Shown: positions 28,279 through 30,478, numbered from the stretch's first letter. The stretch is 64,000 nt of DNA from a virus (IMGVR_UViG_2778261574_000002); one strand, 5' to 3'. The notes: generated by a model from the sequence alone, not told the origin. Numbers and translations: made by a program.

Positions 28279-28354
28279 TGGTGGCCCCTACCGGACTTGA
28301 ACCGGTGACCGTGCGATTATGAGTCGCCAGCTCTAACCACTGAGCTAAAGGGCC
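28279..28354 (-). tRNA. tRNA-Ile (CAU anticodon, lysidine type)
   Basis: 76 nt; cloverleaf folds by hand; anticodon loop CUCAUAA; 3' CCA encoded. Confidence 0.8.
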
Positions 28355-28381
28355 GGATTACTGCCAATTTTGCTTACGCTT

Positions 28382-29209
28382 TTATTTCACCGGAACAAAC
28401 GGAACAGCGGTATTACTGGTCATATACTGCGGTAATGTACCGTTCCATTTGTTGATCGCTTCCAACTCCATAACACCGGGGTTCTGGCGCAGAGCTTCAC
28501 CACGTAAACGAATGGCATCAGCTTCGGCCTGGGCTTTTGTGCGAATAGCATCAGCCTGTCCGGCAGCTTCCGCGCGCAGCATGTTGGCCTCTGCTTCACG
28601 TTGTTTGACCTCTTGCTCGCGTTGCAGGGTTTTTTGGTTTGCCGTGACTTTGGCGTTAATACTGTCAATAACTGTTGGCGGGTATTCTGGCTTACCTACA
28701 TAAGAGAGGCTCATCACCTGAATGCCGATTGGCGTCATTTCTTCCTGAATGTCTTTAAGGGCTGCATCAAGCAATTCGGATTTGCCACCGTCGATAAATT
28801 TGTCGGTTGTCATTTTGCTGGCTAACCGGTTCAGAGCATCTGCAACCTTCTGGCGTAGATCGGTATCAGTAATATCATCTACACCTTTGCGATAGGTCTG
28901 AAATACCGTTGTGACTTTTGCTGGATCAACCTTGTAGGCTACGCCGATGTGGTAACCAATGGTTGTTCCGTCGCTCATCTGGAAGCTGAACGGCTCATCG
29001 TATGTCTTCATTTGCTTAAAGGTCGGGAAGATATAAACTTCAGTATTCAAGCCTGTCCAGTAGCGACCAACGCCAACTACTTCACCGATACCTTTATCAT
29101 CCCCCAGCTTATTTACTTTGATCCCTACGTTACCTGGCTCTACCCGATCGCATCCGGTCAGACATAAAGAACCCAAAATAATCGCTGCACTAATCAACGT
29201 TTTTTTCAT
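28382..29209 (-). CDS. plp: SPFH/band-7 family lipoprotein
   Basis: 275 aa; lipobox LCLTGC; prohibitin-like core and coiled-coil tail. Confidence 0.7.
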   Translation of the reverse strand: MKKTLISAAIILGSLCLTGCDRVEPGNVGIKVNKLGDDKGIGEVVGVGRYWTGLNTEVYIFPTFKQMKTYDEPFSFQMSDGTTIGYHIGVAYKVDPAKVTTVFQTYRKGVDDITDTDLRQKVADALNRLASKMTTDKFIDGGKSELLDAALKDIQEEMTPIGIQVMSLSYVGKPEYPPTVIDSINAKVTANQKTLQREQEVKQREAEANMLRAEAAGQADAIRTKAQAEADAIRLRGEALRQNPGVMELEAINKWNGTLPQYMTSNTAVPFVPVK

Positions 29210-29426
29210 TAATTAATTTCCTGGTTTTTTCACGAAAAAAGACTACTGCGAAAGCTGGGTAAATGAGCGCGAGAAGGACTCCCAACAATACAAGTATTGT
29301 GCTGTTAGATGAGATCATATTTGGCAAAAGCCAAACATACAGAACCAGTGACACAATCAAACAGAGGACGGCATAAATATATAACCGCACCCATAGCGTT
29401 CGACATTTGTTCGGATTGTTCTGCAT
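29190..29426 (-). CDS. small membrane protein
   Basis: 78 aa; two hydrophobic helices; overlaps the lipoprotein start. Confidence 0.45.
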   Translation of the reverse strand: MQNNPNKCRTLWVRLYIYAVLCLIVSLVLYVWLLPNMISSNSTILVLLGVLLALIYPAFAVVFFREKTRKLINEKNVD

Positions 29427-29689
29427 CCTCTCACTCCATTATTTAACGAATAAAAAAGCTGCGGTGCCGGGTACCTCCCGGTGTCCTTTGGCTGGTTATC
29501 CACCGTGGACGGGGAAACAAGGAGAAATGAATGGACTGATATAACCATTTCCCCGCGTGCGCTTAGCCGCATTCACCGCAATGGTAAGAGCACTTGGCTG
29601 GCTGGGCGGCGATGACGCCTGTACGCATTTGGTGATCCGGTTCTGCTTCCGGCATTCGCTTAATTAGCCAAATACTCTTAACGTTGCGC

Positions 29690-29776
29690 TGGCGGAGAGT
29701 AATGGAATCGAACCATCATCGCTTGCGCTATGGGACGGTTTTCAAGACCGCTTGAGCACCATGCTCCCTACTCTCC
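29690..29776 (-). tRNA. tRNA-Ser-like (UGA anticodon), type II
   Basis: 87 nt; 7-bp acceptor stem, anticodon arm GCGGT-CUUGAAA-ACCGU, long variable arm, T-loop UUCGAUU; D-arm atypical. Confidence 0.45.
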
Positions 29777-29911
29777 CGTTATTGTGGCGACCGGTGCTGA
29801 TCTCCGGCTTGCGGTTATTTCAGACTCTCACGGGCGTTTAATTGCCCCGCCGAACAGCTCTTTTCCGCAATAGCTGCAATGTCTTTCGCGCATCAGCCTG
29901 CGCATTCACCA

Positions 29912-30000
29912 CAACGTTGAGAACACTGGTTGTCACGCGCAACGCAACATTTATTCGTAGATTGGGATATGACCCCGTTACGCCAGTGTTCTCAACGTTG
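29912..30000. repeat. perfect 18-bp inverted repeat with 53-nt spacer
   Basis: CAACGTTGAGAACACTGG (29912-29929) and CCAGTGTTCTCAACGTTG (29983-30000). Confidence 0.5.
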
Positions 30001-30147
30001 TAGTGCCGGTTACGGTTCCGGCCAGGCCTCTTCCTCAACGGGGTGTTCTCCATACGGACTACCGTTTATTGGTCGTTCCTGCGGTTTATGTTGTGAAGCC
30101 AGATGCTTATCTTCTGGTTGCTTCAAAGAGCTGCACTTCATCACAAC

Positions 30148-30221
30148 GGTAAGAGCATTTATGGCTCGCATCGCGGGAAAAAGCCCACGGTAGAGAGTCG
30201 AACTCTACAAATGCTCTTACC
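30148..30221. repeat. 13-bp inverted repeat enclosing an inverted T-arm-like hairpin
   Basis: GGTAAGAGCATTT and AAATGCTCTTACC; internal GTAGAG-AGTCGAA-CTCTAC. Confidence 0.45.
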
Positions 30222-30229
30222 TGTTGTGT

Positions 30230-30305
30230 TGGTGCCGGTTAACGGGATCGAACCGCTGACCATTCGCTTACAAAGCGACTGCTCTACCAACTGAGCTAAA
30301 CCGGC
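30230..30305 (-). tRNA. tRNA-Thr (UGU)
   Basis: 76 nt; acceptor GCCGGUU/AACCGGC, anticodon loop UUUGUAA, T-loop UUCGAUC, 3' CCA. Confidence 0.8.
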
Positions 30306-30309
30306 AATT

Positions 30310-30396
30310 TGGTGGGGAGTGATGGAGTCGAACCACCCGAGTCGCAATGACAGTAGATTTACAGTCTACCCCGCTACCCCTACGGACTAACTCCCC
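30310..30396 (-). tRNA. tRNA-Tyr-like (GUA), type II
   Basis: 87 nt; acceptor GGGGAGU/ACUCCCC, anticodon arm GUAGA-CUGUAAA-UCUAC, long variable arm, 3' CCA. Confidence 0.5.
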
Positions 30397-30401
30397 TAAA
30401 T

Positions 30402-30478
30402 TGGCGATGGTGGGTGGATTCGAACCACCGACCGACAGCTTAGAAGGCTGCTGCTCTATCCTACTGAGCTACACCATC
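30402..30478 (-). tRNA. tRNA-Arg (UCU)
   Basis: 77 nt; perfect 7-bp acceptor, anticodon loop CUUCUAA, T-loop UUCGAAU, 3' CCA. Confidence 0.75.

What the first reader, a model, noticed from the sequence alone, without database searches (positions are those of the whole stretch)
28279..30478. Five tRNA-like genes with hand-derived anticodons Arg(UCU), Tyr(GUA)-like, Thr(UGU), Ser(UGA)-like and Ile(CAU)
Three fold as clean cloverleaves with encoded CCA (Arg, Thr, Ile); two are type II-like with atypical D-arms. From memory the P1 reference carries three tRNAs, so this set may be expanded or differ in identity, but I cannot verify that here. Rare-codon tRNAs such as Arg-UCU often matter for late-gene expression.
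Basis: partly seen in the sequence, partly recalled or inferred. Interest (0 to 1): 0.55.

Follow-up and report, generated by a model that had tools for sequence, protein, structure and literature searches.

The report
Five-tRNA cassette in P1-like plasmid
The window is a P1-type phage-plasmid whose repressor-controlled early operon carries five real tRNA genes instead of P1's three; four match the codons the phage over-uses, one is a rare '8/4' serine tRNA, and such sets are already present and machine-annotated in dozens of public E. coli plasmids.

Summary
Confirmed. ARAGORN finds five tRNA genes at exactly the stated coordinates, all on the minus strand: Arg(UCU), Tyr(GUA), Thr(UGU), Ser(UGA) and a CAU tRNA that is Ile2 (89% to E. 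coli ileX, 71% to metT). All five encode CCA. They lie in the P1 ban operon, downstream of the bivalent C1 operator at 31137-31164 and upstream of ban.

Reference P1 has Asn-Thr...Ile2. Relatives show a slot-wise mosaic, and the Arg-Tyr module of this set occurs at >=95% identity in 68 plasmid records among 5,426 complete E. coli genomes, never on a chromosome.

- Tyr is 91-93% identical to T-even and Vequintavirus tRNA-Tyr.
- The 'Ser-like' gene fails Rfam's tRNA cut-off and NCBI labels it tRNA-OTHER. Across about 70 phage homologues, positions 8 and 65 co-vary, which fits the published (8/4) tRNA-Ser class.
- Arg is a chimera: a resident Asn tRNA scaffold carrying an Arg anticodon arm and A20.

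Arg, Ile2, Thr and Ser decode five of the six codons most enriched in the window relative to an E. coli control. Tyr codons are not enriched, so counter-defence is the likelier role for Tyr (inferred).

Verdict: a real but largely known kind of feature; moderate interest.

The parts
31137..31164 (.). Bivalent C1 repressor operator (P1 Op72/Oban) overlapping the 3' end of dmt. It marks the C1-controlled ban promoter that heads the tRNA operon.
   Evidence: Perfect 17-mer ATTGCTCTAATAAATTT on the minus strand at 31148-31164, plus a 2-mismatch copy on the plus strand at 31137-31153. The same arrangement is annotated in P1 and P7.
30952..30971 (-). Terminator-like GC hairpin followed by T7 in the operon leader. 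It is positionally equivalent to the end of P1's annotated 'dicF-like region'.
   Evidence: P1 annotation. No DicF match in Rfam.
30672..30772 (-). Long stable hairpin H1 in the leader. Its arm belongs to the family CACAACGGUAAGAGCAC.
   Evidence: (MFE -45.7 kcal/mol, z -5.67).
30402..30478 (-). tRNA-Arg(UCU), 77 nt, CCA encoded. It is a chimera of a phage-plasmid Asn scaffold and an Arg anticodon arm, with A20 in the D-loop.
   Evidence: Rfam 72.1 bits. The 3' 32 nt are 32/32 identical to the pJN2-26 Asn tRNA, the anticodon arm is 16/19 identical to the LL12 Arg arm, and the D-loop GGAUAGAGC matches argU.
30310..30396 (-). tRNA-Tyr(GUA), 87 nt, type II, A73, CCA encoded, with a 4-nt acceptor/D linker. 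It belongs to the T-even/Vequintavirus tRNA-Tyr family.
   Evidence: Rfam 41.9 bits. 93% identical to LL12 and 91% to T2L tRNA-Tyr. PGAP calls it tRNA-Tyr.
30230..30305 (-). tRNA-Thr(UGU), 76 nt, CCA encoded. This allele differs from the P1 allele mainly in the anticodon stem and at position 32.
   Evidence: Rfam 67.2 bits. Allele comparison.
30130..30232 (-). Long stable hairpin H2, immediately 3' of tRNA-Thr.
   Evidence: (MFE -44.4 kcal/mol, z -6.04).
29880..30010 (-). Long stable hairpin H3 with 23-nt arms that are 96% complementary.
   Evidence: MFE -63.1 kcal/mol, z -7.46.
29690..29776 (-). Non-canonical (8/4) tRNA-Ser(UGA), 87 nt. It has an 8-bp acceptor stem, a compact D-arm, a long variable arm with a GCAA loop, a 4-bp T-stem, G73 and encoded CCA.
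   Evidence: Below the Rfam tRNA cut-off; tRNA-Sec 41.8 bits (<47). Family covariation. Positions 8 and 65 co-vary. PGAP calls it tRNA-OTHER. Class described in PMC5389517.
29560..29692 (-). Hairpin H4, immediately 3' of tRNA-Ser, with the same arm family. Its loop region is conserved in Vequintavirus LL12.
   Evidence: MFE -47.9 kcal/mol, z -3.1.
29190..29426 (-). 78-aa ORF overlapping the start of the SPFH gene. No Pfam family passes its cut-off. Part of the SPFH module.
   Evidence: Annotated 'hypothetical/membrane protein' in Ro157c2YLVW.
28382..29209 (-). SPFH/Band 7 domain protein. This module occupies the place of tciA-tciB-tciC in reference P1.
   Evidence: Pfam PF01145, 107.6 bits.
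28279..28354 (-). tRNA-Ile2 (anticodon CAU, expected to be read as AUA after lysidine modification), 76 nt, CCA encoded.
   Evidence: Rfam 64.7 bits. 89% identical to ileX against 71% to metT. P1 trnI annotation. PGAP calls it tRNA-Ile.
26629..27999 (-). ban (DnaB-like replicative helicase), the protein gene that gives the operon its name, downstream of the tRNAs.
   Evidence: ORF; homologues annotated.

Best explanation
The five genes are genuine, co-transcribed tRNA genes of a P1-type phage-plasmid. They lie on the minus strand between the C1-repressed ban promoter/operator and the ban helicase gene. They should therefore be silent in the plasmid prophage and made early after infection or induction (inferred from P1).

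The cassette is a slot-wise mosaic that recombines among P1-, D6- and SSU5-type phage-plasmids and virulent coliphages:
- Slot 1 holds Asn or Arg.
- Slot 2 holds Tyr or nothing.
- Slot 3 holds one of two Thr alleles.
- A Ser module is present or absent.
- Ile2 is constant.

In this element four tRNAs, Arg(UCU), Ile2, Thr(UGU) and Ser(UGA), supply decoders for AGA/AGG, AUA, ACA and UCA. These are the codons the phage uses 2.5-6 times more often than the host control. The most likely main function is to relieve host tRNA limitation during lytic growth.

Tyr codons are not enriched. That gene belongs to the T-even tRNA-Tyr family, whose T6 member counteracts tRNA-Tyr-cleaving Septu. It most likely tops up tRNA-Tyr against such defences (inferred).

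The Arg gene arose by putting an Arg anticodon arm and A20 into the resident Asn tRNA scaffold. That exchange changes the main determinants that ArgRS and AsnRS read (anticodon plus A20 for Arg; G73, which both share, is unchanged). The Ser gene is a non-canonical (8/4) serine tRNA, expected to be charged by SerRS through its long variable arm and G73.
For: Identity of the genes:
- ARAGORN and Rfam and PGAP annotation.
- CCA is encoded in all five.
- Host comparison and identity elements: A20, the CUUCUAA loop and G73 as in argU; 89% identity to ileX; A73 and a long variable arm for Tyr; G73, G2:C71, A3:U70 and a long variable arm for Ser.

Operon context:
- A perfect C1 operator pair at 31137-31164, matching P1/P7 Op72/Oban, which P7's annotators say controls the tRNAs.
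- No other sigma-70-like promoter in 27900-31300.

Mosaic structure:
- tRNA sets in 13 relatives and the breakpoints between modules.
- LL12 is colinear over Arg + spacer + Tyr and over Ser + flank.

Codon match:
- The top-enriched codons are AGG 6.05x, AUA 4.96x, AGA 3.94x, CGA 2.59x, ACA 2.58x and UCA 2.51x. Tyr codons are at 1.05-1.23x.
- Five target codons all falling in the top six of 61 has a chance probability of about 1e-6 (my arithmetic, post hoc).

Tyr family and counter-defence:
- 91-93% identity to T2L and LL12 tRNA-Tyr.
- Overexpressed T6 tRNA-Tyr rescues infection from Septu EcB88, and T5 tRNA-Tyr from retron-Eco7 (PMC13096335).

Ser:
- The family consensus fold has 15 of 24 pairs with compensatory changes.
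- 36 distinct D-stems among 49 sequences.
- Position 8:65 is A-U in 48/49, G-C in 21/21 and C-G once.
- The (8/4) tRNA-Ser class is reported in phages, and 8/4 tRNAs function in E. coli translation (PMC5389517).

Arg chimera.
Against: - No expression, processing, charging or phenotype data exist for this element; all function is inferred.
- A terminator-like hairpin lies between the operator and the first tRNA, so read-through from Pban is assumed rather than shown.
- The codon control is a single 50-kb K-12 segment analysed with a crude ORF caller. Enrichment of A-rich rare codons could simply reflect the lower GC content (47.5% against 52.0%), and it could be a consequence of carrying the tRNAs rather than the reason for it.
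- The three long ORFs with almost no rare codons show that some genes do not need the tRNAs.
- T6 tRNA-Tyr is itself cleaved by Septu and works by dosage. The window's Tyr was compared with T2L, not directly with T6.
- All Tyr copies in the P1-like loci are identical, so there is no covariation evidence within the family sampled here.
Confidence: 0.62

Rival explanations
1. The whole cassette is primarily a counter-defence device. The tRNAs replace host tRNAs destroyed by tRNA-targeting immune nucleases or colicins (OLD, Septu/retron PtuAB, PARIS, PrrC, colicins D/E5). The slot-wise turnover and anticodon-arm variation reflect an arms race. Under this reading the codon match is secondary.
For: - The two Thr(UGU) alleles differ mainly in the anticodon stem and at position 32. 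P2 OLD cuts host Thr(UGU) after nucleotides 27-29, and phage Thr(UGU) tRNAs rescue infection (bioRxiv 10.64898/2026.07.10.737580).
- tRNA-Tyr is the target of Septu EcB88 and retron-Eco7, and phage tRNA-Tyr counteracts them.
- Tyr codons are not enriched.
- The phage tRNAs are only 69-78% identical to their host counterparts, apart from Ile2.
- In D6-type plasmids the cassette abuts a Tad2 anti-Thoeris gene.
- A general hypothesis of this kind has been published (PMC10264068).
Against: - Four of the five tRNAs decode precisely the most over-used codons, which the counter-defence reading alone does not predict.
- Ile2 is 89% identical to ileX, with an anticodon stem-loop identical except at position 43, so it is not obviously a nuclease-resistant variant.
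- No nuclease is known from the papers read here to target Arg(UCU), Ser(UGA) or Ile2 in this setting.
- No cleavage-resistance data exist for these sequences.
Confidence: 0.27
2. Some of the genes, especially the atypical Ser and Tyr, are decaying pseudo-tRNAs or recombination debris carried along passively.
For: - The Ser candidate fails the Rfam tRNA cut-off, and tRNAscan-based pipelines leave its isotype open.
- Its single-sequence MFE fold is not a cloverleaf.
- T-arm-like fragments occur in the neighbouring hairpins.
Against: - The Ser family shows extensive compensatory change in every stem across about 70 distinct phage sequences.
- Ser has encoded CCA, an intact T-loop and G73.
- Tyr passes Rfam and PGAP, and its T-even homologue is expressed and active.
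- The Arg-Tyr module is conserved at >=95% in dozens of plasmids, and the Ser gene is near-identical in all nine fetched relatives that carry it.
Confidence: 0.04
3. The Ser-like gene is a selenocysteine-type or recoding/suppressor tRNA, or a regulatory tRNA-like RNA, rather than a plain serine decoder.
For: - Its best Rfam hit is tRNA-Sec at 41.8 bits.
- It has a Sec-like compact D-arm and a long variable arm.
- Many allo-tRNAs carry non-serine anticodons and may act as suppressors or regulators (PMC5389517).
Against: - The anticodon is UGA, which reads the serine codon UCA, not UCA, which reads UGA.
- The acceptor/T branch is 12 bp (8/4), not 13 bp.
- The score is below the Sec cut-off.
- UCA is among the most over-used codons in the element, which fits ordinary Ser decoding.
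- Every family member retrieved has the CUUGAAA loop, but this was fixed by my search pattern, so it is not independent evidence.
Confidence: 0.03

Closest known systems
Bacteriophage P1 ban-operon tRNA genes (trnA Asn, trnT Thr, trnI Ile2), NC_005856
   Same: Same operon and order of landmarks: dmt, the C1 operator Op72, the leader, the tRNA pair slot, a spacer, an accessory module, Ile2 and ban. The leader is 91% identical, Ile2 is identical, and Thr is an 89%-identical allele.
   Different: P1 has three tRNAs. Here Asn is replaced by Arg(UCU), Tyr is inserted between slot 1 and Thr, an (8/4) Ser module is added, and tciABC is replaced by an SPFH module.
Phage-plasmids D6, P7 and vB_EcoM-Ro157c2YLVW, and E. 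coli plasmids such as pAVS0578-B (NZ_CP124376.1) and NZ_CP027309.1
   Same: pAVS0578-B is 99.7% identical over the locus and has the same five tRNAs. Three D6-type plasmids (CP058021.1, NZ_CP027309.1, CP056796.1) carry the same five in a different genomic context. D6 and P7 carry the Ser gene, and Ro157c2YLVW carries the Tyr gene.
   Different: D6 and P7 have Asn-Thr-Ser...Ile2, and Ro157c2YLVW has Asn-Tyr-Thr...Ile2. The P7 record does not annotate the Ser gene, and D6's annotators could not assign it.
(8/4) tRNA-Ser / allo-tRNA class (Mukai et al., Nucleic Acids Res 2017, PMC5389517)
   Same: It scores as a near-miss of the tRNA-Sec covariance model. It has a long variable arm, G73 (U73 in some relatives), a long D-stem with a very small loop, an 8-bp acceptor stem with a 4-bp T-stem, and a serine anticodon. 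The class was reported in bacteriophages.
   Different: The paper's main text does not mention coliphages or E. coli elements. Here the class is found in P1/P7/D6-type plasmids, Vequintavirus and Klebsiella phages. The anticodon stem here is 5 bp rather than extended. Serylation was not tested.
T-even (T2L/T6) and Vequintavirus tRNA clusters
   Same: Tyr is 91-93% identical and Ser is 90% identical to LL12's. LL12 carries Arg-Tyr-Ser-(odd tRNA-like gene)-Thr-Met(CAU)-Pro and is colinear with the window over Arg + spacer + Tyr and over Ser + flank.
   Different: Those are virulent phages with larger clusters. The window's Thr and CAU genes are unrelated to theirs (about 72-74% identical). The window's Arg shares only the anticodon arm with LL12's Arg.
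Alloacceptor tRNA gene recruitment/remoulding (known mainly from organelles; from my own knowledge, not checked here)
   Same: A tRNA gene changes amino-acid identity while keeping most of its body. Here an Asn scaffold carries an Arg anticodon arm plus A20.
   Different: Here the change looks like a patch replacement of 19 nt plus two inserted A's, probably by recombination with a phage Arg gene, rather than a single anticodon point mutation.

Membership tests
Canonical tRNA (Rfam RF00005) | Covariance-model score at or above the gathering cut-off of 29 bits | tested here: met
   Arg 72.1, Thr 67.2, CAU 64.7 and Tyr 41.9 bits. This applies to four of the five genes.
Canonical tRNA (Rfam RF00005) | The same cut-off applied to the Ser(UGA) candidate | tested here: not met
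   The candidate is not listed at gathering threshold. Its best clan hit is tRNA-Sec at 41.8 bits. ARAGORN and PGAP still detect it.
tRNA-Ile2 (ileX/ileY type, lysidine-dependent AUA decoder) | CAU anticodon on a body closer to ileX than to elongator tRNA-Met, with acceptor pairs C4:G69 and C5:G68 (TilS determinants, from established knowledge) | tested here: met
   89% identical to ileX against 71% to metT. The acceptor stem GGCCCUU/AGGGGCC gives C4:G69 and C5:G68. P1 annotates the homologue as tRNA-Ile2 and PGAP calls it tRNA-Ile.
tRNA-Ile2 (ileX/ileY type, lysidine-dependent AUA decoder) | C34 converted to lysidine by TilS and charged by IleRS | not testable with these tools
   Requires mass spectrometry of the tRNA or a charging assay.
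tRNA-Arg (E. coli ArgRS substrate) | A20 in the D-loop, C35 and U36 (established identity elements) | tested here: met
   The D-loop GGAUAGAGC and the anticodon loop CUUCUAA are identical to argU, and the discriminator is G73 as in argU. The related Asn genes lack the two A's.
(8/4) tRNA-Ser / allo-tRNA (PMC5389517) | 12-bp acceptor branch made of an 8-bp acceptor stem and a 4-bp T-stem | tested here: met
   RNAalifold predicts the 8:65 pair. Position 8:65 is A-U in 48/49, G-C in 21/21 and C-G once. Near-identical relatives L114 and L156 differ at both positions together. Caveat: G49 could also pair with U65 or C65, and one sequence (A8, C65, G49) fits 7/5 better.
(8/4) tRNA-Ser / allo-tRNA (PMC5389517) | tRNA-Sec-like D-arm (long stem, about a tetraloop), long variable arm, G73 or U73, serine anticodon | tested here: met
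   D-stem of 4-5 bp in 46/49 sequences and D-loop of 3-5 nt in 49/49. Variable region of 14-22 nt. Discriminator G in 41, U in 7 and C in 1. Sub-threshold Sec hit. The UGA anticodon was fixed by my search pattern.
(8/4) tRNA-Ser / allo-tRNA (PMC5389517) | Extended (6-bp) anticodon stem, as described for allo-tRNAs | tested here: not met
   The consensus fold gives 5 pairs. The sixth pair in the Sec-model alignment is non-canonical.
(8/4) tRNA-Ser / allo-tRNA (PMC5389517) | Serylation by SerRS and use in translation | not testable with these tools
   Shown for other 8/4 tRNAs in E. coli (PMC5389517 abstract), but not for this sequence.
tRNA-Sec (Rfam RF01852) | Score of at least 47 bits, UCA anticodon, 13-bp acceptor branch | tested here: not met
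   41.8 bits, anticodon UGA and a 12-bp branch.
T-even/Vequintavirus tRNA-Tyr family | High sequence identity over the full length, GUA anticodon, A73 and a long variable arm | tested here: met
   93% identical to LL12 and O157 typing phage 14, and 91% to T2L. The variable arm is identical to theirs.
P1 ban operon | Bivalent C1 operator at the 3' end of dmt, tRNAs, then ban, all on one strand | tested here: met
Anti-defence phage tRNA (functional class) | Resistance to, or dosage compensation for, a tRNA-cleaving defence nuclease | not testable with these tools
   Only analogy is available: T6/T5 tRNA-Tyr and phage Thr(UGU) against OLD.

The most novel reading that the evidence does not exclude
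The P1-family ban-operon tRNA array may be a modular cassette system. In this reading, units of the form 'tRNA + long hairpin' are swapped between temperate phage-plasmids and virulent coliphages. Identity can be rewritten in place (Asn to Arg by anticodon-arm replacement). The non-canonical members, the 8/4 Ser and the Tyr with an expanded linker, together with the anticodon-stem alleles of Thr, would be selected because they escape or out-titrate host tRNA-cleaving defences. The codon bias of the phage would then follow from the tRNAs it carries. Since P7 and D6 are classical laboratory phages of E. coli K-12, they would offer a tractable natural system for studying an 8/4 tRNA in vivo.
Probability: 0.2. 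Interest if true: 0.6.

Novelty: new member of a known kind. Interest (0 to 1): 0.38.

Why it matters
As a feature this is ordinary. Phage tRNA genes in the P1 family are known, and these sequences are already in public records with automatic annotation.

Three points give it modest value.

1. The gene that pipelines label 'tRNA-OTHER', or skip altogether, in P7, D6 and many E. coli plasmids can be assigned to the rare (8/4) tRNA-Ser class. That places a non-canonical tRNA in classical, genetically tractable coliphages.
2. The Asn-to-Arg chimera is a clean natural example of switching tRNA identity by exchanging only the anticodon arm and creating A20.
3. One operon combines tRNAs that fit codon supplementation with one that does not (Tyr). 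That makes it a good test bed for separating the codon-supply and anti-defence explanations for phage tRNAs.

Tried and rejected
- **tRNA-Sec reading of the Ser gene.** Rejected because of the anticodon UGA, a score below cut-off and a 12-bp branch.
- **Plain 7/5 cloverleaf for the Ser gene, as drawn by ARAGORN.** I first favoured it on one sequence with C65. A second scan that freed position 8 showed 8:65 covariation, so 8/4 is preferred.
- **Single-sequence MFE folding of the Ser gene.** It gave no cloverleaf and was uninformative.
- **Search for internal sigma-70 promoters in 27900-31300.** None found, so no evidence for separate tRNA promoters.
- **DicF in the leader.** No Rfam hit.
- **STnc100-like hit at 29460-29580.** Below cut-off and weakly structured. 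Not pursued.
- **Literature.** The first search returned only mitochondrial genome papers. The P1 genome paper (PMC523184) is not held. The PARIS paper does not list Thr or Asn targets as I had half-remembered, so I make no claim about PARIS.
- **Pseudogene/relic reading.** Rejected on covariation and conservation.
- **Late genes specifically needing the tRNAs.** Not supported by the per-gene counts.

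
Full report
**1. Observation**

ARAGORN on the whole 64-kb window finds five tRNA genes and nothing else.
- CAU tRNA at 28279-28354
- Ser(UGA) at 29690-29776
- Thr(UGU) at 30230-30305
- Tyr(GUA) at 30310-30396
- Arg(UCU) at 30402-30478

All five encode the 3' CCA. Rfam's tRNA model, with a cut-off of 29 bits, scores Arg at 72.1, Thr at 67.2, CAU at 64.7 and Tyr at 41.9 bits. The Ser candidate stays below the tRNA cut-off. Its best match is tRNA-Sec at 41.8 bits, under that family's cut-off of 47.

**2. Context**

The window is a P1-type (Punavirus) phage-plasmid. The 2.6-kb locus is 99.7% identical to E. coli plasmid pAVS0578-B (IncY) and 90-98% identical in parts to P1, P7, D6, RCS47 and others. 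C4 antisense RNA and a sok RNA elsewhere in the window fit that assignment.

In P1 the tRNA genes belong to the ban operon. Its order is: the C1-controlled promoter and bivalent operator Op72 at the 3' end of dmt, a dicF-like leader, trnA (Asn), trnT (Thr), tciABC, trnI (Ile2), ban. The window has the same frame on its minus strand:
- dmt at 31155-33419.
- A perfect C1 operator at 31148-31164 overlapping a 2-mismatch inverted copy at 31137-31153.
- The tRNAs.
- The DnaB-like ban gene at 26629-27999.

No other sigma-70-like promoter was found between 27900 and 31300. A terminator-like hairpin lies in the leader at 30971-30952. Expression from Pban after loss of C1 repression is therefore inferred from P1, not shown.

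**3. Identity of each gene** (host comparison)

*CAU.* It is 89% identical to E. coli ileX but 71% to elongator metT. Its anticodon stem-loop matches ileX except at position 43, and it has C4:G69 and C5:G68. P1's identical gene is annotated tRNA-Ile2 and PGAP calls it tRNA-Ile. It is the AUA decoder, not a Met tRNA.

*Arg.* It is only 69% identical to argU overall. It shares the D-loop GGAUAGAGC (A20), the anticodon loop CUUCUAA and G73, which are the elements ArgRS reads.

*Thr.* It has G1:C72, C2:G71 and the UGU anticodon, and is 78% identical to thrU.

*Tyr.* It has A73, a long variable arm and an anticodon loop identical to tyrU. Four nucleotides rather than two link the acceptor and D stems, followed by a normal 4-bp D-stem and a 7-nt loop with A14 and G18-G19.

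*Ser.* It has G73, G2:C71, A3:U70, a 15-nt anticodon stem-loop core identical to serT, and a long variable arm closed by a GCAA loop. Its D region is very compact.

**4. The set is a mosaic and is not unique**

ARAGORN on 13 related loci gives the following sets:

| tRNA set | Elements |
|---|---|
| Asn-Thr...Ile2 | P1, RCS47, SJ46, MH422554 |
| Asn-Thr-Ser...Ile2 | D6, P7, pSA186_4, pMTY1886 |
| Asn-Tyr-Thr...Ile2 | vB_EcoM-Ro157c2YLVW |
| Arg-Tyr-Thr-Ser...Ile2 | the window, pAVS0578-B, three D6-type plasmids |

In the three D6-type plasmids the cassette sits in a different genomic neighbourhood.

Pairwise BLAST defines the modules:
- A conserved leader.
- Slot 1, holding Asn or Arg.
- An optional Tyr.
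- Thr in two alleles.
- A conserved spacer.
- An optional Ser module (29815-29553).
- Either an SPFH module (29601-28382; Pfam Band_7) or tciABC.
- A conserved Ile2-ban junction.

The Tyr+Arg pair occurs at >=95% identity in about 83 PLSDB plasmids. It also occurs in 68 records among 5,426 complete E. coli genomes, always on plasmids and never on a chromosome. Another 233 records match at 90-95%; the sampled rows in that band are annotated tRNA-Tyr | tRNA-Asn.

PGAP annotates an identical Arg-Tyr module, with close Thr, Ser and Ile2 variants, as tRNA-Arg, tRNA-Tyr, tRNA-Thr, tRNA-OTHER and tRNA-Ile. D6's authors noted for the Ser gene: 'apparent UGA Serine anticodon but AA not called by tRNAscan-SE'.

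**5. Relatives outside the P1 family**

The Tyr gene is 93% identical to the tRNA-Tyr of Vequintaviruses (LL12, O157 typing phage 14) and 91% to that of T2L, with the same variable arm. The Ser gene is 90% identical to LL12's annotated tRNA-Ser and 89% to that of the SSU5-type Klebsiella phage-plasmid pJN2-26. More distant copies occur in T5-like and T4-like Klebsiella phages.

Vequintaviruses carry Arg-Tyr-Ser-(odd tRNA-like gene)-Thr-Met(CAU)-Pro. LL12 aligns colinearly with the window over Arg + spacer + Tyr (30471-30306, 84%) and over Ser plus 83 nt of 3' flank (29776-29607, 84%). Whole modules, not just genes, are therefore shared between virulent and temperate coliphages. The direction of transfer is unknown.

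**6. The Arg gene is a chimera**

- Its 3' 32 nt (T-arm, acceptor 3' strand, G73, CCA) are 32/32 identical to the Asn(GUU) tRNA of pJN2-26, and differ by 1-3 nt from the Asn genes that occupy the same slot in Ro157c2YLVW, pMTY1886 and P1.
- Its 5' acceptor strand and D-stem are identical too, apart from two extra A's in the D-loop.
- The 19-nt stretch spanning position 26 and the anticodon arm differs at 10-11 positions from those Asn genes.
- That arm is 16/19 identical to LL12's Arg(UCU) arm. Two of the three differences form a compensatory G-C to A-U pair (pairing read from the sequences).

AsnRS and ArgRS both rely mainly on the anticodon, plus G73 for Asn and A20 for Arg (established knowledge). 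So this exchange changes the determinants needed to convert an Asn tRNA into an Arg tRNA. Charging was not tested.

**7. The Ser gene is an (8/4) tRNA-Ser**

A pattern scan of IMG/VR returned 60 distinct family members. RNAalifold on 49 of them gives a full cloverleaf with compensatory changes at 15 of 24 pairs, and it pairs position 8 with position 65.

Position-based parsing of those 49 sequences shows:
- 36 distinct D-stems of 4-5 bp, essentially all Watson-Crick or G-U.
- D-loops of 3-5 nt.
- Variable regions of 14-22 nt.
- Discriminator G in 41, U in 7 and C in 1.

That first scan fixed A8, so I ran a second scan allowing G or C at position 8:
- Compact-D-arm members with G8 have C65 in 21 of 21 cases.
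- One C8 member has G65.
- The A8 set has U65 in 48 of 49.
- The near-identical pair L114 and L156 differ at positions 8 and 65 together.
- The association is very strong (Fisher p about 6e-17), and it recurs on several acceptor-stem backgrounds. The sequences are related, however, so the p-value overstates independence.

G49 could alternatively pair with U65 or C65, and one sequence fits 7/5 better. The 8/4 arrangement is therefore well supported but not proven.

These properties match the '(8/4) tRNA-Ser' that Mukai et al. found among tRNA-Sec false positives: a long variable arm, G73 or U73, and a Sec-like long D-stem with a tetraloop. They reported the class in bacteriophages, proteobacteria and rumen bacteria, and showed that 8/4 tRNAs work in E. 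coli translation (PMC5389517). Their main text does not mention coliphages. One described allo-tRNA feature, an extended anticodon stem, is not present here. A selenocysteine role is excluded by the anticodon and by the 12-bp branch.

**8. Function: codon supply**

I applied the same crude ORF caller to the window (66 ORFs, 16,996 codons) and to a 50-kb E. coli K-12 segment (41 ORFs, 14,686 codons). The codons most enriched in the window are:

| Codon | Enrichment |
|---|---|
| AGG | 6.05x |
| AUA | 4.96x |
| AGA | 3.94x |
| CGA | 2.59x |
| ACA | 2.58x |
| UCA | 2.51x |

Arg(UCU), Ile2, Thr(UGU) and Ser(UGA) decode five of these six. By my arithmetic the chance of that is 56/55,525,372, about 1e-6, although the test is post hoc. 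AAU and AAC, the codons read by the Asn tRNA that P1 carries instead of Arg, are at 1.64x and 0.88x. So the Arg variant fits demand better than the Asn variant.

Tyr codons are at 1.23x and 1.05x. AGA+AGG+AUA has a median of 24 per 1000 codons across the window's ORFs, against about 4.8 per 1000 in the control. Three long ORFs (41759-45685) have almost none. The demand is therefore general rather than specific to late genes.

Caveats: the control is one housekeeping-rich segment, GC content differs (47.5% against 52.0%), and cause and effect cannot be separated.

**9. Function: counter-defence**

- Septu EcB88 and retron-Eco7 (PtuAB) cleave host tRNA-Tyr in the variable arm. Overexpressed T6 tRNA-Tyr rescues T6, and T5 tRNA-Tyr resists cleavage (PMC13096335).
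- P2 OLD cleaves Thr(UGU) and four other tRNAs after nucleotides 27-29, and phage Thr(UGU) tRNAs rescue infection (bioRxiv 10.64898/2026.07.10.737580).
- The two P1-family Thr alleles differ mainly in the anticodon stem and at position 32, which is suggestive.
- In D6-type plasmids the cassette is next to a Tad2 anti-Thoeris gene.

All of this is analogy. No cleavage or rescue data exist for these sequences, and the window's Tyr was compared with T2L rather than directly with T6. I treat counter-defence as the likeliest role for Tyr and as a possible second role for Thr.

**10. Verdict**

The feature is a variant of the known P1-family tRNA cassette. It is already present in many public plasmids and is machine-annotated there. 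What this analysis adds:
- Assignment of the unclassified 'tRNA-OTHER' to the (8/4) tRNA-Ser class.
- The chimeric origin of the Arg gene.
- The module map of the locus.
- The quantitative codon match.

Novelty: new member of a known kind. Interest: moderate to low (0.38).

Noticed in passing
window 30772-30672, 30232-30130, 30010-29880 and 29692-29560 (minus strand): Four long, very stable RNA hairpins (H1-H4) share one arm family, consensus CACAACGGTAAGAGCAC. Their z-scores are -5.7, -6.0, -7.5 and -3.1. H2 starts right after tRNA-Thr and H4 right after tRNA-Ser. The H1 and H2 loops contain T-arm-like GGTTCGA motifs. LL12 has a hairpin after its Ser gene with a homologous loop but different arms. 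They may be RNase III processing sites or cassette boundaries.
   Followed up: partly
window 29888-30335 (plus strand) against P1 locus L002 4148-4717: P1's annotated upl and plp ORFs lie on the strand opposite the tRNA operon, over this conserved, highly structured spacer, and plp overlaps trnT. The window has no intact equivalents, only an 87-aa TTG ORF and a 63-aa ORF. These P1 genes may not be real coding genes.
   Followed up: no
window 30952-30971 (minus strand) and the leader 30479-31136: A terminator-like hairpin followed by T7 lies between the C1 operator and the first tRNA. It is positionally equivalent to P1's 'dicF-like region', yet Rfam finds no DicF. Whether it ends a small RNA or attenuates the operon is open.
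   Followed up: no
window 29460-29580 (minus strand): A partial match to the sRNA family STnc100 (35.1 bits, cut-off 47), just upstream of the small ORF and the SPFH gene. It folds only weakly better than shuffled sequence (z -2.4).
   Followed up: partly
L020 4190-4288 (LL12) and L025 4189-4287 (O157 typing phage 14): A 99-nt tRNA-like gene lies between Ser and Thr in Vequintaviruses. ARAGORN calls it 'tRNA-???' with a 4-base anticodon (atcc). The LL12 record calls it tRNA-Lys with an 'inconsistent' isotype.
   Followed up: no
L147 1-28 (NZ_CP027309.1), directly downstream of tRNA-Ile2: In D6-type plasmids the gene following the tRNA cassette, where P1 has ban, is annotated as a Thoeris anti-defense Tad2 family protein.
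   Followed up: no
L010 4227-4313 (P7) and L004 4234-4939 (D6): The P7 reference record does not annotate the (8/4) Ser gene that ARAGORN finds there. The D6 record places its three annotated tRNAs on the strand opposite to the ARAGORN calls and does not annotate the CAU gene at L004 3173-3248.
   Followed up: partly
window 41759-45685 (plus strand): Three consecutive long ORFs (482, 528 and 270 codons) contain between them a single AGA/AGG/AUA codon (one AUA), while the window median is 24 per 1000. They are probably very highly expressed genes adapted to the host tRNA pool.
   Followed up: no
plasmids NZ_CP058659.1 (H80) and NZ_CP116989.1 (H190): These plasmids carry the Arg(UCU) gene at 100% identity without an adjacent Tyr gene. 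This is a further slot combination not seen in the 13 loci I fetched.
   Followed up: no
window 47587-47761, 51213-51298 and 51367-51419 (minus strand): Rfam finds a sok antitoxin RNA (91.4 bits), which implies a hok/sok-type module I do not recall in reference P1. It also finds the C4 antisense RNA with its a1/b1 target, that is, the P1-type immunity region.
   Followed up: no
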